The position numbers and the translations under genes are program-made. A DNA stretch of 37,726 bases, taken from NCBI GenBank assembly GCA_945957245.1, contig CAMFLD010000001.1, forward strand, positions 1-37,726, given 5' to 3'. How positions within the stretch are numbered: the first letter of the stretch is position 1; each line of letters starts with the position of its first letter. Of this stretch, positions 4,090 to 22,357 are shown piece after piece. The stretch comes from an uncultured Flavobacterium sp. (GTDB taxonomy: Bacteria; Bacteroidota; Bacteroidia; Flavobacteriales; Flavobacteriaceae). A model generated the notes under the pieces. That model was not told where the DNA came from, did not search any database, and worked only from the letters and a program-made list of their open reading frames with translations.

Positions 4090-4176
4090 TAATATATTTA
4101 CCTCACAAAGTGTTTATTTGTTGTTAGTGTTTGGCGAATACAGATACTAGTGGCAGCACAAAATTACAATATAAAT

Positions 4177-4250
4177 AGCCCCGATTGCAACGGCATCCTT
4201 TTTGGGTTTTGAAACCCAAAAAGATACAGTGGAAAGCGGGAAACAGCTTC
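4177..4250 (+). ncRNA. Flavobacterial structured intergenic repeat/RNA, resembling the Flavo-1 motif as I recall it
   Basis: AGCCCCGATTGCAACGGCATC-CTTTTTGGGTTT-TG-AAACCCAAAAAG-ATACAGTGGAAAGCGGGAAACAGCTTC. Perfect inner inverted repeat plus an outer CCCG/CGGG stem. The family name is from memory and needs an Rfam check. Confidence 0.55.
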
Positions 4251-7737: not shown

Positions 7738-8976
7738 TTATTTGATGTTGGCTGTGGCAACACTGTCCAGTTCTTTTTTTAACGGAGCCATATAAGCCAT
7801 ATATTTTTGTCTGTATCTGCCTTCCATAGGGGTTGATGTTGGCAGTTTCAGTTTTAAGGCGTCAACCTGAACTCCATTTTTCCAAAAGCGGTAGCAAACA
7901 TGTGGGCCTGTGGCTAATCCGGTGCTTCCTACTTTACCGATTACTTGTCCTTGTGTTACTCTTTGTCCCCGTTTTACTAATATTTTAGACATATGCAGGT
8001 ATTGAGTAGAATAGGTTTTGTCGTGTTTCACCTTAACAAAATTCCCATTCCCGGCTGTATATCCTGCCTGTTCTACAACTCCTGATGCTGTAGTCATGAT
8101 AGGTGTTCCGGTTGGTGCGGCATAATCTGTTCCTTTGTGGGCCTTCCAGATTAGCTGTACAGGATGAAATCTGTTGCTGGAATAGTGTGATGTAATATTG
8201 ATGAATTTCAATGGTGCTTTTAAGAAAAAGCTTTTAAGGGTTTTACCTTCTTCATCATAATATTGTTGTTTTCCCGAGCTTCCATCAGGTGTGTATGGGA
8301 AAGCGTAAACTTTTTTCCCTTTGTATTCAAAGAAGCAGGCTTTTAAGCTATCTACTCCATCATAAATGGTATCGTTGATATATCTTTCGGTAAATTTCAG
8401 TCCAAATTTATCGCCTTTCTGAAGTTTAAAGAAGTCAATTGACCATGCATAAATCTTAGCTATTTTTGGTGCCAATGCCGGGTCAACTTTGAGATTTTGC
8501 AGTGTTTCTGATAAAGAACCGTTCAATGCTCCGGCAATAGTTCGGGTTTTGAAGGTTAGCGGTCTTATTTTTTTGTGTGCCGTTATGGAATCCCTAAAGT
8601 CAATTACATAATAGTTCAGACGGTCAGGCTGGTAAATGAATAGTTCTATTTTGTTGGTTTTGCCCTTGCTTCTAAGGATAGTAAACGGCTTTCCTTTTCT
8701 GATGCTTCTCACATCGAAGGAATCCTTTACTTTCTCTACTATTTCATGGACTTGAGCACCGTTTAGGTTTTGGTGACCCAAAATGCTTCCAAAAGTATCG
8801 CCAGACTGGATGGTATCGTGAACCACATTAAAATCATGCAGGTTGAACCCAAACTCTACTGTTTTAGGTTTGGCTTTGGCAACTATAATTTCTTCTTCCT
8901 GAGTTTTATTACAAGAACTAAAAACCGAAATAAGAAGCGTAATCAGGATAGCTTTTTGGAAGATTTTTGACATCAT
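7738..8976 (-). CDS. M23 family peptidoglycan DD-metalloendopeptidase-like lipoprotein (MepM/Csd3-like architecture)
   Basis: Lipobox VFSSC; HKGTDYAAPTGTPI (HxxxD), YLHMS, VGSTGLATGPHVC (HxH replaced by HxC). Confidence 0.92.
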   Translation of the reverse strand: MMSKIFQKAILITLLISVFSSCNKTQEEEIIVAKAKPKTVEFGFNLHDFNVVHDTIQSGDTFGSILGHQNLNGAQVHEIVEKVKDSFDVRSIRKGKPFTILRSKGKTNKIELFIYQPDRLNYYVIDFRDSITAHKKIRPLTFKTRTIAGALNGSLSETLQNLKVDPALAPKIAKIYAWSIDFFKLQKGDKFGLKFTERYINDTIYDGVDSLKACFFEYKGKKVYAFPYTPDGSSGKQQYYDEEGKTLKSFFLKAPLKFINITSHYSSNRFHPVQLIWKAHKGTDYAAPTGTPIMTTASGVVEQAGYTAGNGNFVKVKHDKTYSTQYLHMSKILVKRGQRVTQGQVIGKVGSTGLATGPHVCYRFWKNGVQVDALKLKLPTSTPMEGRYRQKYMAYMAPLKKELDSVATANIK

Positions 8977-8977
8977 T

Positions 8978-9910
8978 TTAGTATCCTTCTCCCCAGTTTT
9001 TTAATTCTTCTTCGCTCCATAATTCCGGAAAAAATATACGGCGTTGGTATTTTGGATGCATGTATTTTTTCCAATCACTTCCGCCTGTTGCTTCTCCCGA
9101 GCCTTTGCCGCTTTCAATGTATTTCCTGGCTGCATTTAAATGGCCCATGACCCAAGTAATATTTACGGTATGGTCGTAGTGACGCATGGCTTTTACTAAT
9201 TCAGGATTTTTCTGGTCTGCTTCAGGCAATTGTTTGAATTTCTGCCAAATATTAATCGTGTTGTATTCCTCCATGTAACGCAGGAACTCTTCTCTGTATT
9301 TTCTTTCGAATTCAAGGATTAAATATGATTTCTCTCCGGTATGGTAATCTTTTCCTGCCGCCTGCCAGTATAAATGCTCAAAAGCATGCGAATAAGGCGT
9401 ATTACGGTCGATTGTTGCCCTGAATCGGTAATCTATCAGATTTATCAAATCAGTAGAAGAGAACTCAATTAAACGGTATTGTGCGCTTTGGAAACCACTT
9501 GCCGGAGTCAGTGTATTTCTGAATTTCATATACTGTTCCACTTCCATTCCGTCTCCCATGATATCGAATGAGGTAGTAAGCATGTCAAAATAGCGGCTAA
9601 TTCTTCTCAGTTTTTCAGTAAAAAAATCCGTCTTGGGTTTTTCCGTATGGCACAGCTGCTTTATTTCCCAAAGCGTCATCTTAAATAAAAGCTCATTTAC
9701 CTGATGGTACATGATAAAGACCATTTCATCCGGCAATACAGTTCTTTGAGTCTGCAGATTGAGCAGGGCATCGGTTTGAATGTAGTCCCAGTAGGTAATT
9801 GGTTTTGACCAAAGTAATCCTTCTAAGTGTGTTTCTGTTTTTTGATTTATTGCATCAAACTTTTCATCTAATGCCTCGAGTAGTATGTCTGTGTTAGTTT
9901 TAGTAGTCAT
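8978..9910 (-). CDS. kynA: Tryptophan 2,3-dioxygenase family protein
   Basis: YWDYI..DALL, DEMVFIMYHQVNELLFK, FRNTLTPASGFQSAQYRLIE, ATGGS, FFPELW motifs. Confidence 0.9.
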   Translation of the reverse strand: MTTKTNTDILLEALDEKFDAINQKTETHLEGLLWSKPITYWDYIQTDALLNLQTQRTVLPDEMVFIMYHQVNELLFKMTLWEIKQLCHTEKPKTDFFTEKLRRISRYFDMLTTSFDIMGDGMEVEQYMKFRNTLTPASGFQSAQYRLIEFSSTDLINLIDYRFRATIDRNTPYSHAFEHLYWQAAGKDYHTGEKSYLILEFERKYREEFLRYMEEYNTINIWQKFKQLPEADQKNPELVKAMRHYDHTVNITWVMGHLNAARKYIESGKGSGEATGGSDWKKYMHPKYQRRIFFPELWSEEELKNWGEGY

Positions 9911-10686
9911 TAATCATCTATTTTAACCATAAAAGGACTTTTCAATCCTTTGAAGCCTTCAAGGTCGGCTTTTAATGAGCCAACAGCAAGACTTGCTTTT
10001 ATTCTTAGTGGAATTTTGTTGTCGTCATCGGATATCCAAACCGTCAAACTTTCTTCTTCTTTGAAGACTCTTCCTGATTGTACAATAGGTCTGAAAATCA
10101 TTGCTGGAGCGATGCCAAATTTAGTTTTTAAATTTTCCCTTCCTATGAATTTTAACTTAAACTTATAAATTTCGTCATCAAAGAACATATCAACTACAAC
10201 CGATTCTCCAACTTTAAGTTTGTCAATGTTTGGATGGTTTCTTAGGTAATAAAACGTGGAAACAATATCCTGAACGTTTTCGGTTACAGAAAAAGATTTT
10301 TCTGTTTTGTTTTTATAATCCTTTACAAGGACTTTGTTATTGTCCTGATTGAAGAACCCTTCCTGATTTTTGGTATAGCCTCCTTCATCAATTTTCCTTA
10401 CGTATTGATATGGTTTGTTGGTGACTTTATCAAAATAACTTTCGTAGGTATCGTCAACTTTAAAGAAAAAGCGTGACATTCCGACAGTATAGCCTTTACC
10501 AATGGCGTGGTATACTTTTTTGTTATCGCGAACTGCTTCTTTAATTTCCAGCGTGGCATAGCCGGCATTTACAAATCCATAATGTATTCTGAATTTGAAC
10601 CATTCTCCCGAATCATAGGCATCTGGTTTGGGAGAATCAAAACTTACAGTTATAAAAACCAATAATAATAAAAAATATTTTTTCAT
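9910..10686 (-). CDS. DUF3108 domain secreted protein
   Basis: Signal peptide; GEWFKFRIHYG, FFKVDDTYESY, QDIVSTFYYLR, VWISDDDNKIPLRI pattern typical of Bacteroidota DUF3108. TAATG overlap with kynA. Confidence 0.85.
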   Translation of the reverse strand: MKKYFLLLLVFITVSFDSPKPDAYDSGEWFKFRIHYGFVNAGYATLEIKEAVRDNKKVYHAIGKGYTVGMSRFFFKVDDTYESYFDKVTNKPYQYVRKIDEGGYTKNQEGFFNQDNNKVLVKDYKNKTEKSFSVTENVQDIVSTFYYLRNHPNIDKLKVGESVVVDMFFDDEIYKFKLKFIGRENLKTKFGIAPAMIFRPIVQSGRVFKEEESLTVWISDDDNKIPLRIKASLAVGSLKADLEGFKGLKSPFMVKIDD

Positions 10687-10714: not shown

Positions 10715-10730
10715 TGCAATATCTGTTCCA
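10715..10730 (-). promoter_or_regulatory. Candidate sigma-54 promoter for the DUF3108-kynA-M23 operon
   Basis: Minus strand TGGAACAGATATTGCA, i.e. TGG-N10-GC, close to the TGGCAC-N5-TTGCA consensus. It lies 28 nt before the ATG and just downstream of a terminator. Confidence 0.65.
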
Positions 10731-10743
10731 AAAGTACCAAAAC

Positions 10744-10859
10744 AAAAAAACCCAGTCAAATTAATGACTGAGTTTTTATGCTATTAACTAACCAAAAAAC
10801 TATAAATTATGAAAATTTATCCAAAAAATATAGAGGAAACCACTCCTCGATTTTTTGAT
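10744..10859 (-). ncRNA. Putative ~115-nt small RNA
   Basis: -7 box TATCTTTG (10864-10871) with TTG 21 nt upstream; 5' hairpin GAGGAG-UGGU-UUCCUC; U-rich core; terminator CUCAGUCA/UGACUGGG + U7. Both stems use G-U pairs that form only on the minus strand. Confidence 0.7.
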
Positions 10860-11027
10860 GGTGCAAAGATAGGGCATGTAATTGCATAATTACAAGCGAT
10901 TTGTCAACTTTAACAGTTATTTAGTAAAAAACAGGTTGTTTAATGGTTGATTTTTGAATTATCTTTAAAAATATTGTGCTTTTTTTAATATTTAAGTGAA
11001 ATTACAGACTTATAACCCTTTAATAAC

Positions 11028-11057
11028 AAAAAAAGCCGAACAATTAGTTCGGCTTTT
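11028..11057 (-). terminator. Intrinsic terminator ending the T9SS cargo-porP-ompA operon
   Basis: AAAAGCCGAAC-AATTA-GTTCGGCTTTT inverted repeat with a U7 tail on the minus strand. Confidence 0.85.
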
Positions 11058-11076: not shown

Positions 11077-12939
11077 TTACTGAACAATCAGGAATTCAGA
11101 ACGACGGTTAAGTGCATGTTGTTCTTCAGTACAATCTTTACCGCAATCAACTTTCGGTTCCAGTTCCCCCATACCTTTTCCTGATATTCTGCTGGCAGGG
11201 ATACCTTTTGAAATAACATATTGAACTGTTGCTTTTGCTCTTCTGTCAGATAATGCTAAGTTATATTTATCACTTCCTCTATTATCTGTATGAGATTTAG
11301 CAAGGATAACCATTTTTTCATTATTTTTCATCACCTGAACAAGTTTATCCAATTCAAATGCACCTTCCTGTGTGATATTGCTCTTATCGAACTCAAAGTA
11401 GATCGGTTTAAGAATAACTTCTGTAGGTGTTACGATGACATCGATTGGTTGCAATGCAGCATCAACTTTGGCTGTTGGGCCTTTGCTTTTGCCAACTGCA
11501 AATGTATTTCCTTCGAAACCATCTTTTGAAGCCTGAACTACATAAGGTTTGTCGCATTCAACTCTGTATTTAACTTCACCTTTTGCATTTGACATTTCTG
11601 TAGCGATAACATTTTTCTTGTCATCAAGAATTGAAACACTTGCATTAGATAAAATCTCGCCTGTTTTAGCATTGGTAACAACAATTAAAACATCAACTCC
11701 GCAGATTGGACTTACAGCAAAGATATCATCATTTCCATTTCTGTTACTTGATAAAAATCCTGCTCCTTTAGTACCGTTGAAAGTAAATGCGAAATCGTCT
11801 TTTTCAGTATTAACCGGCTTACCTAAGTTGGTTGCTTCTCCACCTGATAAATCAATTTGATAAACATCCAATCCTCCTAAACCTTGTTTCCCGCTTGATG
11901 CAAAAAATAGGGTTTTGTTATCATCAGAAATGAATGGGAAGCTTTCGTTTCCTTCTGTATTAACTTTATTACCTAAGTTCTGAGGCTCTCCGTAAGTTCC
12001 ATCATCGTTAATAGCAACTTTCCAGATATCGGTACCACCAATACTTCCGGGTCTGTTTGAAGAGAAGTATAATGTTTTTCCGTCACGGCTTAAGCTTGGG
12101 TTACTGTTGGAAAATGTTTTATCATTGAAAGGTACTTCAACAATATTACCCCATTTATCACCAGTTTTTGTAGCTTTGAATAAGTAAACCTGACTAACTT
12201 TAGCATTGGCTTTCTTATTCTTTTCAGATTCTTTTTCTTTGAAACTTTCGCTTGCAAAATAAGCTGTGTTACCATCCGCACTAATGGTTATAGGGCCATC
12301 ATGCCATTTTGAGTTTAAATCTCTTACCGGTACTGCATTTGTAACCTTTCCGTTATCATAATCTGCGCGATAGATATCCAAATAAGGCTCGTCTGTCCAA
12401 CCGTAAGTTTTGCGGGCACCATTCCTGGCGCTGGCAAAATATACTGCATTGTCATAAAGCACTGCTCCGAAATCTGATTTATCACTGCTTATGTCTGATG
12501 CATCAACATTATACAATTTGGTTTTATCCAAAAGTTTTGGAACATAATTAGGATTTTGCTTGAATGCAATAGCTCTTGAATCTGAAGGAACTGCGGCTGC
12601 AAATTTTTGCATTTGTCTGTTAGCTTCCTCATATTTTCCATTAGCTTTCAACATTTGAGCATAACGATAATAGGTTTCTGCATCCTGATTTGTTTCTGTT
12701 GCTTTCGCATACCATTTAGCGGCTTCTTCAGTATTGAATACGTTATAGTAACTATCAGCTAATTGTTTGTATACATAAGCATCTCCTTTACCGTTTTCAA
12801 CCAGTTTAAGATATTCCTTTGCGGCATCAACATATTCAAAACGGGCAAATAACTTATCCGCTGCTTTTGTGTCTTTGTTTTGAGCAGAAACTGTAAAGCT
12901 AATAGCTACAAAACTTAATACTATATATAGATTTTTCAT
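11077..12939 (-). CDS. PorE-like OmpA family protein (TPR + PD40 beta-propeller + carboxypeptidase-regulatory-like + OmpA_C)
   Basis: TPR-like N-terminus; PD40 repeats (DGKTLYFSSNRPGSIGGTDIW); IYFEFDKSNI, SHTDNRG..YNLALSDRRA, NRRSEF motifs. Confidence 0.92.
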   Translation of the reverse strand: MKNLYIVLSFVAISFTVSAQNKDTKAADKLFARFEYVDAAKEYLKLVENGKGDAYVYKQLADSYYNVFNTEEAAKWYAKATETNQDAETYYRYAQMLKANGKYEEANRQMQKFAAAVPSDSRAIAFKQNPNYVPKLLDKTKLYNVDASDISSDKSDFGAVLYDNAVYFASARNGARKTYGWTDEPYLDIYRADYDNGKVTNAVPVRDLNSKWHDGPITISADGNTAYFASESFKEKESEKNKKANAKVSQVYLFKATKTGDKWGNIVEVPFNDKTFSNSNPSLSRDGKTLYFSSNRPGSIGGTDIWKVAINDDGTYGEPQNLGNKVNTEGNESFPFISDDNKTLFFASSGKQGLGGLDVYQIDLSGGEATNLGKPVNTEKDDFAFTFNGTKGAGFLSSNRNGNDDIFAVSPICGVDVLIVVTNAKTGEILSNASVSILDDKKNVIATEMSNAKGEVKYRVECDKPYVVQASKDGFEGNTFAVGKSKGPTAKVDAALQPIDVIVTPTEVILKPIYFEFDKSNITQEGAFELDKLVQVMKNNEKMVILAKSHTDNRGSDKYNLALSDRRAKATVQYVISKGIPASRISGKGMGELEPKVDCGKDCTEEQHALNRRSEFLIVQ

Positions 12940-12958
12940 TTTTAGGATTGCTTTTAGG

Positions 12959-13879
12959 TTAGAAATATCTTGGTGAACGTGATACTTTTTTCGGGAAATT
13001 CAAATCAAATAACAGCATTACCTCATGAGAAGCCGGTGTATCGATTTTTAAATCCGAAACAATATGATCATAAGCATATCCAATTTTCAGACTTGGAGTG
13101 ATGGCAAAATTTACCATCGCTCCAAAGGAATCTTGTAATCTATAAGTTGCTCCAAGCTCTAACTTATCATACATTAAGAAGTTAGTAGAAACATCAACAG
13201 ATGTAGGCGCTTTAACCGCTGATTTAATCATCGCAAACGGTTTAAATTTAAGGTTAGGATTAATATCAAACACATAACCTCCGGTTAAGAAGTAGTGAAT
13301 AACATCTGTACCATACTGTCTACCATTGAAATCTAAATATTTAGATTTTAACATATTTGGGACAGAAAAAGCCAAATAGTATTTGTTTGTATAATAAAAT
13401 ACCCCTGAACCAATATTTAAGAAAGTACTGTTTGGATTAGCTGCATAAAACGGATCGCTGGTTGAAGGTTGAGGCAATGTAGGATAAATTGTTGCAAAAT
13501 CTATCTTATGCATCGTAGCCCCAGCCTTTAATCCAAAAGCCAGTTTATGTTCTCCTCCTAAATTCAAAGTATAAGAGAAATCTCCGTAAACATTGGTTTC
13601 GTCTACAGGACCAATCTTATCTGAAATTATAGAAAGACCTAATCCTACATTCCTTCCAACCGGACTGTGTAAAAAGAATGTACCGGTTGTAGGAGCACCT
13701 TCCAAACCTACCCATTGGGCACGGTAAAGCAAACCTCCGGACACTGTTTCCTTCGAACCTGCATAAGCTGGGTTCATTACACTCATATTGTACATGTATT
13801 GCGTGTAATGTGGATCTTGCTGAGCTCTTAACTCGTTAATCGCTAAAGCCAATATCGCAATGAAATATATTTTCTTCAT
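12959..13879 (-). CDS. Type IX secretion system membrane protein, PorP/SprF family
   Basis: AQQDPHYTQYMYN...NPAYAG, YRAQWVGLEGAP, IGYAYD, SHEVML, SPRYF C-terminus. Confidence 0.95.
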   Translation of the reverse strand: MKKIYFIAILALAINELRAQQDPHYTQYMYNMSVMNPAYAGSKETVSGGLLYRAQWVGLEGAPTTGTFFLHSPVGRNVGLGLSIISDKIGPVDETNVYGDFSYTLNLGGEHKLAFGLKAGATMHKIDFATIYPTLPQPSTSDPFYAANPNSTFLNIGSGVFYYTNKYYLAFSVPNMLKSKYLDFNGRQYGTDVIHYFLTGGYVFDINPNLKFKPFAMIKSAVKAPTSVDVSTNFLMYDKLELGATYRLQDSFGAMVNFAITPSLKIGYAYDHIVSDLKIDTPASHEVMLLFDLNFPKKVSRSPRYF

Positions 13880-13912
13880 CTTGTTTAGTTTTTTTTAATG
13901 CAAATTATAAGT

Positions 13913-16900
13913 TTATTGTGCTCTATTGATGTAAATCCATCCTGTAATCGAATCCCCAACGTTTCTATCAATTACATAGAAATAAGTTCCATCCGGAAGT
14001 TCATCTCCATTATCAGATTTTCCACCCCATTCTTTAACGTAATTAGCTTTAGAATAAACTTTCATACCGTATCTGTTAAAGATAGTAAGTTTTTTAACAT
14101 CAAAACCTGTCAAATCAAACACATCATTGAAACCATCATTATTTACCGAGATACCTTTCTGGATCTGACAAGCAATGGTAGTTACTTCAAATGGTGCTGA
14201 CTCAGTCGAACAACCATCAACAGTTACTGTAACGGTGTACGTTCCAACTGCCGGCACATTCAAACTTTGGGCAGTTCCCACTTCAACATGAGAGGCATTC
14301 TGCCATGAGAACGTTGCTGTTTCAGGGTTAAATGAACCGTTAACCGGAGCTGCATTTAAAACATAAACACTTTGACATCCACCATTAAGTTCTACTAGAA
14401 CTGGTGGAATTATTGTGATTTGAGCAGTTCCTGATGCTGCCACCTGACAAATTGAAGGATCTGCATTAACTGTATAAGTAATCGTGTAATTACCAGCCGG
14501 GCTTGATAAATCAATTGCACCTGTATTAGGGTTGATGATTAATGAACCGGTAGCACTGAATGTTCCACCTGTTGTAAATCCGGCACCCAAGTTTGGCAAC
14601 TCTATGGTAGAGCTGTTAGCCGAACAGAATGGAGTATCATAACTAAAGGTTGTAACCGGTGTAACTACAGGGTTTATTACAATACTAAACGTACCGCTAT
14701 TAGCTACCTGACAAGTTGCAGCATTGGCAGCAACAGAATAGGTAATGGTATACGGTCCAGCATTACTGTTAGCTAAATCGATAACACCTGTAGCTCCATT
14801 GATTACCAAACCTGGTGTTGAACTGAAGGTTCCACCTGAGGTAAATCCGGCAGACAATGTTGGCGTCAATGTAGCCTGAGCATTTTTACAAATTGGAGTA
14901 GTATAACTAAATCCAACTACTGGTGTAATAACCGGATTAATTGTTATTACAAAGTCTGTCGAACCTGCTACTCTACATGTTGTAGCGTCAGCCGTCGTAG
15001 TATACGTTATGGTGTAAACACCAGGTGTAGTTGAGGCCAGATTAATTTCACCTGTTACCGGATCTAAAGCAATTCCGGTAGAAGGATTCGATGTAAATGT
15101 TCCTCCTGTTGTGAATCCGGTAGCAAAAGTTGGCGTTGGATTAGAAGTTGCATTTTGGCAAACTGGTGTTGTATACGTAAATGACGTTACTGGAGTAATA
15201 ACCGGATTGATAACAATATCAAATGTATTGCTGGTTGCTGATAAACAGCTATTTCCTGCTAAAGCATAAGTTATTGTGTATGGTCCGGCTGTACTGGCTG
15301 CCAAATCAATGACTCCTGTCGTACCATCTATAACTAATCCTGCTGTTGAACTAAATACACCGCCGCCAGTAAATCCGGTTGCCAATGTTGGTGACAATGT
15401 GGCCTGAGCATTTTGACAAATAGGTGTTGTATAAGTAAACCCTACAACTGGTACTATAACATTGGTAATTACTACCGTAAAAGTTGTTGACCCAAAAGAC
15501 TGACAAGTAACCGGATCAAAAGGAACTGTATACGTTATATCATAAGTTCCTGAAGTCGTACCCGAAAGCGTAATCTCTCCAGTACTTGCATTAAGTGCAA
15601 TTCCAGTAGAAGGATTTGACGTCCATGTTCCTCCGGTTGTAAATCCTGTCGCAGAAGTATCTGGTAGTGGATTTACTCCTGAGTTTTGACAAACAGGAGT
15701 TGTATAAGTAAATGTTGTTTCCGTAGGAATAGCATTTACAGCATCAATAATTACCTGTACTCCATCAGACACACATCCTGTTGATAGGTCTTTAACAACT
15801 AAAGTATGTTGACCCGGAGCTACACCACTAAATGTAACACCTGATTGGTAAGGGCCATTATCAAGGCTATACTGGTAGTTAGATACGGTCATAGCATAAG
15901 TACCTACATTACTGTAATCTTCAGGGTCTGTTGTAGTCCAGTCAGAAGGATTCCATGTAGTGCTTGGAAGCGTTGCTGTATTTAATCTTCTGTATGTATA
16001 TCCTGTTTGACCAGCCGGAGTAAATGTTGAACCATCTGTTGGACCCCATTGATCTACAAGTACATCTGCAGAAGTAGTTAATCTAATGTTATCATTATTA
16101 TTCACACCTGCACATCCTGTAAAGGTCTGGTTAGGTGTAACTCCCGGTGCATTGGCGCTATTACTTACTTTAATAACATTAGTAGCGTTGTTTAATATCG
16201 TTCCTGATAAAACTAAATCACATTGTAAGTTTTCTGTTGTAGGTGGTGAACCCCAAGTATAGAATTTCAATTTGTAATTAGCTAAATTAACAGGAACTCC
16301 TGTTGCATTGTAAAGCTCAACATAAGTTAATGATCCGGTATCAGCATCAGTAACCTCAGAAATAAACAGGTTACTTGGCACAGGTAATCCTGTAGAAACT
16401 GGTGAAGTTACAGTTACCGAACCAGTAGGAGTAGTACAAGACGACTGTGTTACAGTAAACGTCGGATCTTCAACAGTATTAATAACAACATTAAACTGTC
16501 TTTCACTAACACATCCATTGGTTCCCTGAGCATAAATATAAATTGGATTAACTCCCGGGTTAGTAATGGTGTAATTAGAACTGTCAATTAGTGTACCTGA
16601 TCCTCCAGGTCCGCCAGTGGCAGTATAATAATTTCCAACAGTTAAAGCAGGCAATGTAAATGTATCACAAGCAGCTACTGAAGCTTGAGTAAGCACTGGT
16701 GAAGCAAGAATCTCAACTTGAGTAGTCGTTGTAAATGCTGCACAACCACCAGTTGCGGCAATTGTATAAGTTACTGTATAAACTCCAGGTGTACTTGCTA
16801 CCGGAATAATATCTCCTGAAGTACCATTAATTACTAAACCTGCAGGTGAAGCAGAGAATGTTCCTCCATTAGTTCCTGTACGTATTATAGCTTGAGGAAC

Positions 16901-19900
16901 TGTTATATTATTACAATAAGTAGCATTTGGATAAGAAATAGTCGCATTAGCCGGAGCAGTAATGATAACAGTTCTTGTAGTTGTAATAAATGGAATTGTG
17001 CTACAAGTTCCTCCTATCGTAGTTGCTGAAGTACTAGTAACAACATAAGCGCCAGGAGTACTTGCCAAAAGGTTAATAGTACCTGTTGCACTGTCAATTA
17101 CCAATCCCGGTGTAGAAGTGTAAACTCCAGCTGTTGCTCCAGGTGCTAATACCGGAGTTGGATTTGGCTGTCCTTGACAATAGTATGTCTGCGGATAGTT
17201 GAATGTATTGATTGGGAAACATGCGGTTGTACCCCCTCCAGTATTTGTTTGTGTAAATGTTACTGTACCAGCTTGATTAGAGAAGTTGGTAATCATAATT
17301 ACATATACATCACATAACTGAGCATTAGGAATACACATGATTTCCTGAGGAGCGATTGAATAACTACAAGCATGCAGTGTTCCCGGACAACCTGATGCAG
17401 GTGTTGGAATTGGCACCGTTTGTCCAAGTGGGTTTGCAGGTACACCAGTACAAGCAGTGTTCAAGTCTGTAAACGGACCCCATGCAACATAATCCACGTC
17501 TCTAGGCGTTCCATTAGTATCGACCTGAGAAATTAAATAACTCAACGGACCTGCCTGATTTACCTGTAAGAAGAAAAATGCAGGGTTAGGAGAAGTAAAT
17601 AAACATCCTATCTGACCTAAACTAGGTACGTTAGTAGAGTTAGCATAAGTTACTGTCTGACCCGTACAGAAAGCCGGAGCTTCAGTACATGGTAATGTTC
17701 CGATACACATATCAAAATTGGTAAGTGATGGACTTGTACCTGTTGAGAACACTCTAATATAATAAGTAGTTCCTGCAACTAAGTTCGCTCCTGAGTTACA
17801 TCCAACCTCTGTTAAACCAGTACATGTACCTGAGTAAATAGCATAGTTTATAGTTGTTGTATTCGGAACAACGTTGTTGAACGATATAATATGAGTTGGA
17901 GCTGTAGCAGTGAATGTAAACCATACGTCATCATCCGCACCGCCGCCGCCGCAAGATGTTGCAGGCGTTGAAGCAGTTGCACCTGCCAAAGTACCGTGTG
18001 TAGTTTGAACACAGTTTAGATTTTGATTAACAATAGCAAAAGAAGCATTGATACATTCATCATTAACCGGTTTTGTAACAAAGTTAAATGCTGACCAGGT
18101 ACTTGAAGAAGTAGGAGAACAAACCGCTCTGATGTAAACTACATAAGCCGTTCCCGGTAATAAGTTATTGGCAACATAACTAGGAGTACCTGAAACTGGG
18201 AATCCTCCATTTGTTGGTATAGGTGAGCCAGCAGGTAATACCAGTACCTCCCATTGATTTGCTACTGAGCCATCCGGATTAGGTAATTGTGACCATTGAA
18301 TAGTAGCGCTGTTTTGCGAAATCTGTCCTGGTGGAATATTGATTAATGTTGGTCTCGCACATTGAGGTGCAGGCGCACAGGTTACGTTTGCAACCCATCC
18401 TGCCGCTGTGGTAGTACCGTCACTTCTAAATACAAATGTTAAACATCCGTCAGGTGTTGTAGAAGTAAATGGCCCTGGAAGATTACCTCCGGTCAAGTTA
18501 CCCCAATAAGCTCCTGCAATACCTCCTGGTACATTTCCTGCACCATTGATACTAGGTATTTGAGATGCCGGATCAATACCGTTTCCGTCATAAACATACA
18601 ATCCATCACGGGTAGCTTCTGTGTTGAATGAAGTAAAAGTTACTGTAACAACCTCACCTGCGTTAGTAGGACATATGTAAGTTGGAATATTGGAGTTGTT
18701 AGCATAAGCTCCTGTTGTTCCTCCAGCATCTGTAAATACTCCTCCACACAATGGTGGTGCAGCCAAAGTAGTAATAGTTACAGGGATACAACTCCAAGCA
18801 CTTGTAGTTGTTCCACAATTAGCTCTTATATAAATGTCATAACATGTAGATGGGTTTAATCCAGTTAGTGTATATGGCGGAGCCACAGTTGGTGGGTTAA
18901 CACTGATGTAACCTGTTGACGCAGCTGTTGGAGCCGGAGACCCACATGGCAATGGTAATATCTGCCATGCCGTTGCTACAGAACCATCAGCATTAGCAGG
19001 CTGAGTCCAGTTTAAGTTAACTAAATTATGTCTCACTGAACCCGGTACTGCAGCGAATGATGTAGGTACATTACATGCTGGTGGTGGTCCACAAGTAACG
19101 TTAGCTAACCATCCTGCATTTTGTACTGAACCATCACTTCTAAACACGAAAGTTAAACATCCGTCAGGAGTACTTGAAGTAAACGGACATGGAATAGCGG
19201 TTCCCCAATATCCTCCTGCTAATCCACCTGGTACGTTACCGGCCGGGTTGTTACTAGCAAAAAGGTTTGCAGGAACTACCGCATTACCGTTGTATACATA
19301 TAAGGCATCCCATGTAGCTTCAGTATTAAATGAAGTAAACGTTACCGTTACTACATCTCCAGGGTTAGTTGGACAGATGGTAGTAGTAACATTTGAGTTA
19401 GGGTTATAAGCTGCTGAAACACCTCCCTCATCTACGAAGTTCCCACCACAAACTGGTGGTGCTACAGCTGTTGTTATAGTTGTTGGAGTACATGGCCAAG
19501 CGCTAACGTTACCGCTACCGCAATTAGCCCGAACATAAATATCATAACATGTACCGGAGTTTAGTCCTGTATTTAATACAAAAGGTGGAGCCGTTGTAAC
19601 ATCTACAAATCCTGTCGTAGCAGCAGTTGGAGCTGGTGAACCACATGGAAGTGCCAACACCTGCCATGCAGAAGCCACACTTGAGTTAGGGTTCGCAGGT
19701 TGTGTCCAGTTCAATGTAACTGAATTATAGGTAACCGCACTTGATGTTATTGCTGTAGGCACGCTACATGTTGGTGCAGGACCGCAGGTTACATTAGCAA
19801 CCCATCCCGGATTTTGTACTGAACCATCACTTCTGAAAACAAATGTCAAACATCCGTCTGCAGTACTTGAAGTAAATGGACACGGAATTGTTGTCCCCCA

Positions 19901-22357
19901 ATATCCACCAGCTAACCCTCCAGGTACATTTCCTGCCGGATTATTACTTGCAATCATATTAGCAGGAACTACAGCATTACCATTATAAACATATAATGCA
20001 TCCCAGGTAGCTTCAGTATTAAATGAAGTAAAAGTCACAGTTACTACATCACCAGGATTATTTGGACAAATTGTAGTAGTAACGTTTGAATTTGGAGCAT
20101 AAGCACCTGTTGTTCCTCCTGCATCCACAAAGTTTCCTCCACATTCTGGCGGAGCGGCTAATGTTGTTATCGAAACTGGTCCAACAATAGTACTTCCTCC
20201 AGAACCACATACAGCTCTAACATAAATGTTATAACAAGTAAGTGGTGTTAATCCTGTGATTGTGTATGGAGCAGCCGGTGGTGCATTAAAAGTAGCCCAT
20301 GGAGTTGAAGAAGCTGTTGGAGCCGGAGCTGTACAAGCTACTGCATATACATTCCATGTAGTAGGCACTGAACTGTCAGGATTAGCAGGCTGGTTCCAGT
20401 TAAGAACAGCTGAATTATGCAATACTGTAGAAGCCGTAAGTACAGTTGGTGCTGCACATGTTGCTTTTGGTGCACAAGTAACATTTGCTATCCACCCTGC
20501 GGCATTTCCTGTTGCATTAGATGTGAATACTGCATAAAGACATCCCGAAGCAGCTGATGAAGTAAATGACGGTGGTAATGTTGTTCCTGATAAGGTTGCC
20601 AACAGAGTAGCTGAAGCGTTATCACCATCATATATTTGTAAAGTATCTCCAGCCGCTACGTTAAATGAAGTAAACGTTAATGTTACTGCATCTGTTGAAG
20701 AACCAGGACATATTAAAACAGGCTGAGTAACTCCGTTAGGGTAGTTACCTGTTGTTCCTCCTGTATCAACATAATTTCCGCCACAAACAGGTGGTGCTAC
20801 TAAAGTACAAACTCTTGTAGGTATAGCACTCCATCCGCTATTGGCAGCACAAACTGCCCTTACATATATGTCATAGCAGGTAGCCGGAGTCAAACCACTA
20901 AGCACGAAAGAAGGTCCTGCAGCTGCAGTAACATCATTAAATGTTGGTACTGAAGCTCCGTTAGGGGCAGGTGATCCTTGAGGTAATGCAATGATATCAA
21001 AAACCGTTGCTACTGATGAATCAGGGTTAGTCGGTTGCGTCCATGTTATGGTTGTTCCTGTAGTTGTAGTTCCTGATGCTATTACAGCATGAGGAATTCT
21101 ACATGCTGGAGCAGCAGCACAAGTGATACTAGCTACATATCCCGATGAAACAGTTGTAGCATCTGAAGTAAACACAAACGTTAATTCTCCACCCGGTGCT
21201 GTTGAAGTATAAGAACCCGGTAAAGTTGTACCTGATAAAGTTGCTAATACTGGTGAAGAAGTATTTGGTCCGTTATAAATTGTTAAAATATCAGCACCAG
21301 CCTGCGTATTAAAGGCAGTAAAAGTAACAGTCGCTACATCTCCCGGATTTGGAGTAACGGTTGTACTTATATTTTCATTGTTTCCATAATTACCCGTTGG
21401 CCCTCCGGAATCTACAAGGTTTCCTCCACAGACTGGCGGTGCCGTTTGTGTTGTGAATGGAGCAGATGGAGCCGAAGGTGGGCTTGAAAAGCCTGTTGAT
21501 GGACATACTCCTGAAACAGTATAAGTATATTGCGTATTAGGAGTTAAGCCTGTAATTTGGTATGGTCCGGTTCCATTAGCCGGAAAGGTAAATGGACTTC
21601 CTGGTACCGAAGGAGTAACTACAACTGTATAAGAAGTTGCTCCTGTATTTGTCCAGCTTAAGTTGGCAGAATTATAAGTCACATTCGTTGTTGCCTGAGT
21701 CGTTGGCGCAGTACATTGTAAATTAATTCCAATATCATCTAAAAACCAACGATCACCATTAAGGTTGCCATCAGGTTGTGTGTAGACTTTCACAAAAGCA
21801 ATGTAAACATCAAAACCTGCGTAAGCAGATAAATCAACTGTTTTTTCTGTCCAAATATTAAAATTGGTAGTTGGAACAATCAATTCTGATTCTGTCCATG
21901 TTACAACAGGGCTGTAAGCAGCAGGATCAATTTGAAAAGATGGGTCAACCGCAGGTGCTACCATCACTTTGAAAACAGTTCCCTGATCCCCACTTGTAAA
22001 CATCCTTGTCCAGAAATGCAGCTCAGTGGTTCCGCTATCATTGATGTGAACCGCTGGAGTTGCAAGGTAGTCTTCTGAGGTATTCCCTGCTCCGATTTGC
22101 TCCCTGTTGACAGAAGCATAATTAACACCCTGATGTGGTGTTACCGGAACGGTATTAATACCCCAGCTTTGTCCGGTACCGACTGTACTAGGCGTGTTGT
22201 TTTCAAAAACAGCCCACTCTCCTGAGGATCCACCTAAATTCCAAAGTGATGGAAGCGGCCCTATAGTACCCGGAGTTTCAAATCCTTGTGTAGCCAACTG
22301 AGAGTAGCCGCTTACACTAATGATAAGAAACAATAGTAGTAAAGTAATTTTTTTCAT
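13913..22357 (-). CDS. Large T9SS type-B-CTD surface protein/adhesin: cleaved-adhesin-like N-domain, alternating FN3 and CUB modules, lamin-tail domain, Ig-like repeats, gliding-motility-associated C-terminal domain
   Basis: Signal peptide (GYSQ); C-terminal ISVNNDGFNDVF...LTIFNRYGMKVY...WGG...LPDGTYFY...GWIYINR; five CGG.F.D.GG..G.Y CUB repeats; FN3 repeats (L.WT...GLTP.T.YDIYVRA.C). -7 box TAAATTTG at 22408-22415. Confidence 0.93.
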   Translation of the reverse strand: MKKITLLLLFLIISVSGYSQLATQGFETPGTIGPLPSLWNLGGSSGEWAVFENNTPSTVGTGQSWGINTVPVTPHQGVNYASVNREQIGAGNTSEDYLATPAVHINDSGTTELHFWTRMFTSGDQGTVFKVMVAPAVDPSFQIDPAAYSPVVTWTESELIVPTTNFNIWTEKTVDLSAYAGFDVYIAFVKVYTQPDGNLNGDRWFLDDIGINLQCTAPTTQATTNVTYNSANLSWTNTGATSYTVVVTPSVPGSPFTFPANGTGPYQITGLTPNTQYTYTVSGVCPSTGFSSPPSAPSAPFTTQTAPPVCGGNLVDSGGPTGNYGNNENISTTVTPNPGDVATVTFTAFNTQAGADILTIYNGPNTSSPVLATLSGTTLPGSYTSTAPGGELTFVFTSDATTVSSGYVASITCAAAPACRIPHAVIASGTTTTGTTITWTQPTNPDSSVATVFDIIALPQGSPAPNGASVPTFNDVTAAAGPSFVLSGLTPATCYDIYVRAVCAANSGWSAIPTRVCTLVAPPVCGGNYVDTGGTTGNYPNGVTQPVLICPGSSTDAVTLTFTSFNVAAGDTLQIYDGDNASATLLATLSGTTLPPSFTSSAASGCLYAVFTSNATGNAAGWIANVTCAPKATCAAPTVLTASTVLHNSAVLNWNQPANPDSSVPTTWNVYAVACTAPAPTASSTPWATFNAPPAAPYTITGLTPLTCYNIYVRAVCGSGGSTIVGPVSITTLAAPPECGGNFVDAGGTTGAYAPNSNVTTTICPNNPGDVVTVTFTSFNTEATWDALYVYNGNAVVPANMIASNNPAGNVPGGLAGGYWGTTIPCPFTSSTADGCLTFVFRSDGSVQNPGWVANVTCGPAPTCSVPTAITSSAVTYNSVTLNWTQPANPNSSVASAWQVLALPCGSPAPTAATTGFVDVTTAPPFVLNTGLNSGTCYDIYVRANCGSGNVSAWPCTPTTITTAVAPPVCGGNFVDEGGVSAAYNPNSNVTTTICPTNPGDVVTVTFTSFNTEATWDALYVYNGNAVVPANLFASNNPAGNVPGGLAGGYWGTAIPCPFTSSTPDGCLTFVFRSDGSVQNAGWLANVTCGPPPACNVPTSFAAVPGSVRHNLVNLNWTQPANADGSVATAWQILPLPCGSPAPTAASTGYISVNPPTVAPPYTLTGLNPSTCYDIYIRANCGTTTSAWSCIPVTITTLAAPPLCGGVFTDAGGTTGAYANNSNIPTYICPTNAGEVVTVTFTSFNTEATRDGLYVYDGNGIDPASQIPSINGAGNVPGGIAGAYWGNLTGGNLPGPFTSTTPDGCLTFVFRSDGTTTAAGWVANVTCAPAPQCARPTLINIPPGQISQNSATIQWSQLPNPDGSVANQWEVLVLPAGSPIPTNGGFPVSGTPSYVANNLLPGTAYVVYIRAVCSPTSSSTWSAFNFVTKPVNDECINASFAIVNQNLNCVQTTHGTLAGATASTPATSCGGGGADDDVWFTFTATAPTHIISFNNVVPNTTTINYAIYSGTCTGLTEVGCNSGANLVAGTTYYIRVFSTGTSPSLTNFDMCIGTLPCTEAPAFCTGQTVTYANSTNVPSLGQIGCLFTSPNPAFFFLQVNQAGPLSYLISQVDTNGTPRDVDYVAWGPFTDLNTACTGVPANPLGQTVPIPTPASGCPGTLHACSYSIAPQEIMCIPNAQLCDVYVIMITNFSNQAGTVTFTQTNTGGGTTACFPINTFNYPQTYYCQGQPNPTPVLAPGATAGVYTSTPGLVIDSATGTINLLASTPGAYVVTSTSATTIGGTCSTIPFITTTRTVIITAPANATISYPNATYCNNITVPQAIIRTGTNGGTFSASPAGLVINGTSGDIIPVASTPGVYTVTYTIAATGGCAAFTTTTQVEILASPVLTQASVAACDTFTLPALTVGNYYTATGGPGGSGTLIDSSNYTITNPGVNPIYIYAQGTNGCVSERQFNVVINTVEDPTFTVTQSSCTTPTGSVTVTSPVSTGLPVPSNLFISEVTDADTGSLTYVELYNATGVPVNLANYKLKFYTWGSPPTTENLQCDLVLSGTILNNATNVIKVSNSANAPGVTPNQTFTGCAGVNNNDNIRLTTSADVLVDQWGPTDGSTFTPAGQTGYTYRRLNTATLPSTTWNPSDWTTTDPEDYSNVGTYAMTVSNYQYSLDNGPYQSGVTFSGVAPGQHTLVVKDLSTGCVSDGVQVIIDAVNAIPTETTFTYTTPVCQNSGVNPLPDTSATGFTTGGTWTSNPSTGIALNASTGEITLSGTTSGTYDITYTVPFDPVTCQSFGSTTFTVVITNVIVPVVGFTYTTPICQNAQATLSPTLATGFTGGGVFSSTAGLVIDGTTGVIDLAASTAGPYTITYALAGNSCLSATSNTFDIVINPVITPVTSFTYTTPVCQNATSNPTPTFATGFTTGGTFTSNPSTGIALDPVTGEINLASTTPGVYTITYTTTADATTCRVAGSTDFVITINPVITPVVGFSYTTPICKNAQATLTPTLSAGFTSGGTFSSTPGLVINGATGVIDLANSNAGPYTITYSVAANAATCQVANSGTFSIVINPVVTPVTTFSYDTPFCSANSSTIELPNLGAGFTTGGTFSATGSLIINPNTGAIDLSSPAGNYTITYTVNADPSICQVAASGTAQITIIPPVLVELNGGCQSVYVLNAAPVNGSFNPETATFSWQNASHVEVGTAQSLNVPAVGTYTVTVTVDGCSTESAPFEVTTIACQIQKGISVNNDGFNDVFDLTGFDVKKLTIFNRYGMKVYSKANYVKEWGGKSDNGDELPDGTYFYVIDRNVGDSITGWIYINRAQ
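14400..15720 (-). repeat. Five tandem ~88-aa Ig-like repeats (F[TS]YTTP[VI]CQN...TGFTxGGTF)
   Basis: Repeat starts near 15715, 15445, 15185, 14915 and 14650 (period about 265 nt). Boundaries are approximate. Confidence 0.8.
18060..21720 (-). repeat. (FN3-CUB)x5-FN3 tandem array
   Basis: CUB starts near 21435, 20790, 20145, 19450 and 18750. Copies 3 and 4 share DNA-level identity (e.g. TTGTACTGAACCATCACTTCT). Boundaries are approximate. Confidence 0.8.

What the first reader, a model, noticed from the sequence alone, without database searches (positions are those of the whole stretch)
10744..10895. Unannotated sRNA whose core is the antisense of a Bacteroidota translation-start region
Seen: a complete minus-strand transcription unit between two operons, with a TTG-N21-TATCTTTG promoter, a 5' hairpin, a single-stranded U-rich core UUUUCAUAAUUUAUAGUUUUUUGGUUAGUUAAUAG and an intrinsic terminator. 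G-U pairs in both stems fix the strand. The core's complement (AACTAACCAAAAAACTATAAATTATGAAAA) looks like a typical A-rich Flavobacterium leader plus ATGAAAA. Established: Bacteroidota mostly initiate translation without Shine-Dalgarno pairing and lack Hfq. Inference: the RNA could repress many mRNAs by masking AUGAAAA starts, which are enriched in MKK/MKN signal-peptide genes. In this window rlpA, DUF3108, the OmpA protein, the adhesin and porZ all begin ATGAAAA.
Basis: partly seen in the sequence, partly recalled or inferred. Interest (0 to 1): 0.75.

Follow-up and report, generated by a model that had tools for sequence, protein, structure and literature searches.

The report
Known anti-start-codon small RNA Rfp18
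This is a real, strongly conserved small RNA gene, the counterpart of the already published Flavobacterium RNA Rfp18, whose core is the mirror image of a near-ideal protein start site of these bacteria and likely pairs over the start codon of a few dozen mRNAs, mostly for exported proteins.

Summary
In detail: promoter box, 5' hairpin, core and terminator are at the stated place on the minus strand. But the RNA is already annotated. It is the ortholog of Rfp18 of Flavobacterium psychrophilum (PMC9723704): 67 of 71 nt are identical over core and terminator (by eye), the downstream genes are the same, the start site is mapped, start-codon pairing was predicted and a deletion mutant was made. This scan also noted Rfp18 before on other DNA (e1-5271934).

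Added here: orthologs occur in 33 of 36 same-genus genomes, and strong matches in 41 of 140 other Flavobacteriaceae genera; all 43 syntenic copies examined there keep UUCAU. The core's complement scores at the 99.8th percentile of this genome's start-site profile. The plus-strand ORF is not conserved.

The published deletion lowered two target mRNAs, against simple repression, though one effect could be polar. A secreted AhpC/TSA redoxin is the best conserved candidate target.

The parts
10744..10858 (-). sRNA gene, Rfp18 ortholog, about 115 nt; 5' end inferred from the ortholog's mapped start
   Evidence: homolog lengths 101-116 nt
10864..10871 (-). Primary-sigma -7 promoter box (TAnnTTTG)
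   Evidence: present 45-66 nt before the core in 137 of 138 distinct matches; ortholog promoter assigned to SigA
10893..10895 (-). TTG, possible -33 element; weakly conserved
   Evidence: 46 of 150 matches
10907..10915 (-). Conserved TGTTAA box upstream of the promoter; possible regulator site, untested
   Evidence: invariant in 30 of 30 aligned loci; 138 of 150 matches
10833..10848 (-). 5' hairpin with a conserved GUGGU apex (extended stem about 10821-10858)
   Evidence: hairpin of -3 kcal/mol or better in 78 of 85 homologs, GUGGU in 70 of 85
10781..10820 (-). Conserved U-rich core, complement of a near-ideal start region; CAU at 10809-10811
10744..10777 (-). Intrinsic terminator with U tail
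   Evidence: 8 of 10 pairs with compensatory changes in 42 sequences
10809..10889 (+). 26-codon antisense ORF; rejected as the functional product
   Evidence: 2-105 codons across 138 distinct matches, median 16; 2-40 in 43 syntenic copies from other genera
10715..10731 (-). Sigma-54-like -24/-12 motif just after the terminator, likely promoter of the downstream operon (context)
   Evidence: 125 of 137 loci; consensus recalled, family described
7738..10686 (-). Downstream operon DUF3108 - tryptophan 2,3-dioxygenase - probable M23 peptidase (synteny marker)
   Evidence: Pfam for the first two; M23 name from the same order in F. psychrophilum

Best explanation
This is the ortholog of the Flavobacterium small RNA Rfp18, an independently transcribed non-coding RNA of about 115 nt whose core is complementary to a near-ideal start region and likely pairs from about -25 to +7 around the AUG of a limited set (tens) of mRNAs, mostly for exported proteins, where it would block ribosome loading. 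Shown here: the gene, its conservation, the lack of a conserved ORF, the complementarity. Shown in print for the ortholog: start site, expression, lower mRNA of two metalloproteases on deletion. Inferred: direct pairing, the targets in this genome, and the block of translation. To fit the published result, the duplex would also have to shield the A/U-rich leader from nucleases, or the published drop is indirect or polar. Identity with Rfp18 about 0.97; pairing over start regions about 0.8; blocking translation as the main outcome about 0.5.
For: Identity: 67 of 71 nt identical over core plus terminator, with a 32-nt identical run (by eye); same three downstream genes; start site at the same distance from the -7 box. 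Start-region fit: 99.8th percentile of the genome's own start-site profile; mean duplex with 450 sampled start regions -10.3 kcal/mol vs -8.5 +/- 0.36 for 24 shuffled cores, none as good, with only a small excess on coding controls, -8.9 vs -8.3. CAU kept in 29 of 30 BLAST-chosen loci and 43 of 43 syntenic copies in other genera. The paper's three top predictions pair at mRNA 176-207 of a window in which the start should lie near 201 (the numbering is my inference from CopraRNA defaults). Conserved candidate target: a secreted AhpC/TSA redoxin, -15 kcal/mol or better in 12 of 14 close orthologs, against 20 of 100 DUF3108 and 4 of 89 TDO leaders. Precedent in the phylum: FopS and GibS bind start regions and repress (PMC11697453, passages). 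Structure over the start region lowers initiation in F. johnsoniae (PMC6847099, passages).
Against: Deleting rfp18 lowered fpp1 and THC0290_0300 mRNA, the opposite of what a repressor that triggers decay gives. The paper's top target family is not a conserved strong target: 5 of 31 M43 genes reach -15, this genome's only -8.6. The signal-peptide enrichment vanishes among ATGAAAA genes (p = 0.72). A test for compensation between the core's A/G position and leader motifs gave only a trend (50:32 vs 9:15, p = 0.06, kin not independent). Six of the 14 redoxin orthologs have near-identical leaders, and the gene was picked as the top hit here. Across 64 arrays Rfp18 does not track fpp1 (rho -0.07) and tracks THC0290_0300 only weakly and negatively (rho -0.29). 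Gene starts and signal peptides come from my own simple scripts.
Confidence: 0.5

Rival explanations
1. Positive regulator: the RNA pairs over the same leaders but stabilises them and raises protein output, as the authors' deletion result suggests.
For: Two target mRNAs fell in the deletion in stationary phase, and fpp2 in the same operon did not. THC0290_0300 lies about 77 kb away, so its drop cannot be a local effect.
Against: A duplex across the AUG should hinder initiation (inference). In F. psychrophilum fpp1 ends 25 bp from the end of the convergent operon that follows rfp18, and hppD transcription runs up to rfp18, so loss of the terminator could lower fpp1 but not fpp2 by read-through. 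The word 'complement' occurs in the main text only for host complement; the SI Appendix with the mutant design could not be read. The M36 prediction is weak (rank 102, -8.1 kcal/mol; matching it to THC0290_0300 is my inference).
Confidence: 0.25
2. Broad damper: because the core mirrors the generic start region, it weakly represses hundreds of ATGAAAA-type mRNAs at once.
For: 99.8th percentile fit and a genome-wide shift against shuffles; an almost invariant core across the family while individual leaders vary.
Against: Only 107 of 2249 start regions reach -16 kcal/mol, 39 of 433 ATGAAAA genes. After opening costs the median net energy of 150 random genes is -0.7. A deletion mutant could be made and grown.
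Confidence: 0.12
3. Protein-binding RNA: the repeated UGGU/GGUU motifs (hairpin apex and twice in the core) bind or titrate an RNA-binding protein, and start-site complementarity is secondary.
For: GUGGU at the 5' hairpin in 70 of 85 homologs; GUUGGUUA-like motifs before terminators in non-syntenic elements without CAU; one RRM-domain protein in this genome.
Against: It does not explain the conserved UUCAU in register with the A-rich leader complement. No binding data. It may act together with pairing.
Confidence: 0.08
4. The conserved sequence is the leader and start of a plus-strand small protein, or only a 5' leader of the DUF3108 operon.
For: The plus strand reads as an excellent start site. 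The paper's start site is listed upstream of both Rfp18 and the next gene. DUF3108 follows in 124 of 138 matches.
Against: ORF length 2-105 codons; a covarying minus-strand terminator; tandem copies and copies without DUF3108 in the fetched flank, as in Kordia; classed as an independent transcript with no predicted CDS; a separate sigma-54-like motif follows the terminator.
Confidence: 0.03

Closest known systems
Rfp18 (THC0290_N_0179) of Flavobacterium psychrophilum, Guerin et al. 2021, PMC9723704
   Same: Core and terminator 67 of 71 nt identical (by eye); same promoter type and spacing; same three downstream genes; same predicted pairing region.
   Different: 5' hairpin about 10 nt longer and of different sequence; A instead of G at the variable core position; upstream neighbour is a PD40/OmpA gene with its own terminator, not hppD. 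The paper lists homologs from Flavobacterium only in the part of Table S9 read.
FopS family and GibS of Bacteroides thetaiotaomicron (PMC11697453)
   Same: Bacteroidota sRNAs that pair at translation-initiation regions of envelope-protein mRNAs; shown there to block translation.
   Different: FopS uses a 5'-end seed and has 14 copies; this RNA has an internal seed and one copy in this genome. No sequence comparison was run, so homology is not claimed.
Rfam families (release 15)
   Same: None at threshold; Flavo-1 occurs elsewhere in the window (4173-4247).
   Different: No match over 10744-10895 at gathering score; best overlap pntA 20.6 bits against a cut-off of 54.

Membership tests
Rfp18 | Sequence homology of core and terminator | tested here: met
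   67 of 71 nt, compared by eye between the supplement row and the window; no alignment program was run on the published sequence
Rfp18 | Position before an unknown exported protein, tryptophan 2,3-dioxygenase and an M23 peptidase | tested here: met
   (771 vs 777 bp; 927 vs 933 bp; 1233 vs 1239 bp)
Rfp18 | Own primary-sigma promoter and intrinsic terminator | tested here: met
   (sequence features)
Rfp18 | No conserved coding potential | tested here: met
   plus-strand ORF length varies 2-105 codons; ortholog has no predicted CDS
Rfp18 | Expressed as a discrete RNA in this organism | tested here: inconclusive
   only contigs of relatives in 4 of 24 listed runs were laid; expression is published for F. 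psychrophilum and F. columnare
Rfp18 | Affects metalloprotease mRNAs | tested here: inconclusive
   this genome's M43 leader pairs weakly (-8.6); an M13 peptidase leader pairs well (-18.2); the effect itself cannot be measured here
FopS/GibS-like start-region repressors | Complementarity spanning the translation-initiation region | tested here: met
FopS/GibS-like start-region repressors | Demonstrated translational repression with compensatory rescue | not testable with these tools
   needs a reporter or in vitro translation; the published deletion points the other way at mRNA level
FopS/GibS-like start-region repressors | Sequence homology to the FopS R1' or GibS seeds | not tested
   no comparison run; works-like claim only
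Rfam RNA families | Score at or above the gathering threshold | tested here: not met

The most novel reading that the evidence does not exclude
Rfp18 is the founding member of a Flavobacteriaceae-wide class of anti-start-codon sRNAs, with tandem duplicates and paralog-like relatives, whose seed is the complement of the lineage's optimal Shine-Dalgarno-free start region. It silences translation of a ranked set of exported-protein mRNAs, such as a secreted AhpC/TSA redoxin, while protecting them from decay, and the published positive effect on fpp1 is partly a read-through artefact.
Probability: 0.25. Interest if true: 0.55.

Novelty: already known. Interest (0 to 1): 0.22.

Why it matters
As a discovery it is not new. 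What remains useful: (1) a published sRNA with no Rfam model is shown to reach across Flavobacteriaceae; (2) its mode of action is open, since the anatomy suggests a block of initiation and the one experiment suggests stabilisation; (3) a strongly pairing, conserved candidate target (secreted AhpC/TSA redoxin) makes this directly testable in F. johnsoniae, the model for translation without Shine-Dalgarno pairing.

Tried and rejected
Rfam: nothing at threshold. Phage collection: no match. Paralogs in this genome: none convincing; next model hit 32 bits against 111. Other families of the order: no strong BLAST match in 24 genomes, best E 4.7e-6; not searched with the model. Expression: 24 runs listed, all with small shares; the 4 laid gave only contigs of relatives, so nothing on transcription here. 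Plus-strand peptide: rejected. tRNA-Met anticodon mimic: UUCAUAA resembles an anticodon loop (recalled), but no conserved 5-bp stem frames it (by eye). M43 proteases as conserved targets: 5 of 31, one locus dropped because its 5' end was cut. DUF4350-like lipoprotein: strong site in 3 of 3 close orthologs, none in 5 distant ones; too few. Compensation test: inconclusive. Basic small proteins as a stand-in for ribosomal proteins: only 8 genes, uninformative. Literature: a whole-word search for Rfp18 gave 6 papers, only one on this RNA; five further searches listed no follow-up study by title or abstract start; most subscription journals are not in the library.

Full report
1. Observation. The 115-nt minus strand folds at -32.1 kcal/mol, z -6.3. 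The plus strand folds at -24.3 with a similar z, so folding alone does not fix the strand. No Rfam family reaches its threshold.

2. Conservation. BLAST found the element at E <= 1e-22 in 33 of 36 same-genus genomes and at no such level in 24 genomes of other families. In the 30 loci aligned, the core is nearly invariant and 29 keep CAU. A pattern scan of named genomes stopped at 120 stretches, among them Flavobacterium, Myroides, Paenimyroides, Capnocytophaga, Kordia, Robertkochia, Galbibacter and Joostella. Of 138 distinct matches, 137 have the -7 box at the right distance, all have a terminator-like hairpin and 124 are followed by DUF3108. The exact pattern occurs in 10 of 150 other genera of the family. 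A covariance model scored 60 bits or more in 41 of 140 other genera. I examined 71 of its hits: 40 of 41 strong ones and 3 of 30 weaker ones lie next to DUF3108, and all 43 keep UUCAU. The model was built mostly from CAU-selected sequences, so this count leans towards CAU. The terminator covaries in 8 of 10 pairs and the consensus leaves the core unpaired. The plus-strand ORF runs from 2 to 105 codons and is rejected.

3. Identity. Guerin et al. 2021 (PMC9723704; I read the abstract, section 20, the first part of section 15, word-search passages and rows of four supplementary tables; the SI Appendix was too large to read) describe Rfp18, a 97-nt independent transcript. By eye it matches the window at 67 of 71 nt over core and terminator, with a 32-nt identical run. 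It is followed by a 771-bp unknown precursor, tryptophan 2,3-dioxygenase and an M23 peptidase, the order seen here. Its start is mapped 6 nt after the -7 box, which places the start here near 10858. The authors confirmed expression in F. columnare, predicted pairing with four metalloprotease mRNAs and an adhesin, and deleted the gene: fpp1 and THC0290_0300 mRNA fell in stationary phase.

4. What the core pairs with. A simple gene caller gave 2249 genes with usable starts and reproduced the known A enrichment at -3, -6 and -11 to -13 (PMC6847099, passages). The core's complement scores above 99.8% of real ATG starts. The real core pairs better with 450 sampled start regions than any of 24 shuffles (-10.3 vs -8.5 +/- 0.36), with only a small excess on coding controls. 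Strong pairing is rare, however: 107 genes reach -16 kcal/mol and 9 reach -20, and only 39 of 433 ATGAAAA genes reach -16. The top 5% are enriched in signal-peptide-like proteins (50 of 112 vs 566 of 2137), but among ATGAAAA genes alone there is no difference (p = 0.72). Top hits include a secreted AhpC/TSA redoxin, gldL, an M13 peptidase and two type IX cargo proteins (17 top-ranked or motif-bearing genes scanned, plus one MFS gene). The redoxin site is -15 or better in 12 of 14 close orthologs, -29 in one, and in 2 of 4 distant ones; one locus had no usable start. Controls: 20 of 100 DUF3108 and 4 of 89 TDO leaders, 5 of 31 M43 leaders. A compensation test gave a trend only (p = 0.06).

5. 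Mechanism. Most likely the RNA pairs in trans over the A-rich leader and AUG of tens of mRNAs. A duplex there should exclude the 30S subunit, as shown for FopS in Bacteroides (PMC11697453, passages); this step is inferred. No Hfq was found in this 79%-complete genome; one RRM-domain protein was. The published deletion argues against repression with decay. Two points weaken it without removing it. First, fpp1 is convergent with the operon behind rfp18, 3.7 kb away, and hppD transcription runs up to the sRNA, so read-through is possible. Second, the main text reports no complementation, though the unread appendix may. The second mRNA is about 77 kb away and needs a trans or indirect effect. I put translation block, with possible mRNA protection, at 0.5, net activation at 0.25, broad damping at 0.12, protein binding at 0.08 and a coding or leader role at 0.03.

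6. Verdict. A real and well-spotted sRNA, but already known as Rfp18, with start-region pairing already predicted for it and start-region repression already shown for other sRNAs of the phylum. The family-wide range, the fit to the optimal start site, the redoxin candidate and the doubt about the sign are modest additions. I found no follow-up paper in six searches of the held library. Interest 0.22.

Noticed in passing
window 10715-10731 (-): Sigma-54-like -24/-12 motif between the sRNA terminator and DUF3108, in 125 of 137 loci; this operon is not in the paper's printed selection of such promoters, full table not checked.
   Followed up: partly
window 10907-10915 (-): TGTTAA box about 50 nt before the start site, better conserved than the -33 TTG (138 vs 46 of 150); possible site of an unknown regulator.
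   Followed up: partly
L045, L065, L138 (Kordia); L250: Tandem duplicates of the whole sRNA gene, each with promoter and terminator, 280-530 bp apart.
   Followed up: partly
L260, L261, L262, L269, L270, L287, L291, L292, L295: Non-syntenic paralog-like elements in other Flavobacteriaceae genera: GUGGUU hairpin, UUCAU or AUCAU, U run, GGUUGGUUAG, terminator; a shorter variant of the same design.
   Followed up: partly
L259, L265, L268, L271, L288, L293: Another recurring element without CAU: a GUUGGUUAAUAGC-like motif right before a terminator, most with a CGTCT motif upstream (possible ECF-type promoter); may be a second sRNA family. Published Rfp11, Rfp13 and Rfp15 carry similar GUUA motifs (by eye).
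   Followed up: no
PMC9723704 Table S4 rows: Rfp18 signal correlates with a tRNA-Met row across 64 arrays (r = 0.83), so its reported stationary-phase rise may partly reflect recovery of short RNAs.
   Followed up: partly
F. psychrophilum 284741-288547: fpp1, one of the two responding mRNAs, lies 3.7 kb downstream of rfp18, convergent with the operon behind it; a polar effect of the deletion is possible.
   Followed up: partly
L157 (G000:C216:4032, +): The gldL leader is among the ten strongest predicted sites in this genome (-20.0 kcal/mol); in the paper gldL is rank 76 at a different position.
   Followed up: no
window 11077-22357 (-): A 2814-aa adhesin-like gene, a PorP/SprF gene and a TPR-PD40-OmpA gene upstream of the sRNA, with a two-way terminator at 11031-11057; looks like a type IX secretion cargo cluster (recalled).
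   Followed up: no
window 4173-4247 (+): Flavo-1 RNA, 73.8 bits.
   Followed up: no
L076: A contig labelled Pseudanabaena carries a Flavobacterium-type sRNA-DUF3108-TDO locus; likely a misbinned contig.
   Followed up: no
L019 (G011): The one homolog of 30 that has lost CAU (reads UAAU) while keeping the rest of the core; a natural variant.
   Followed up: no
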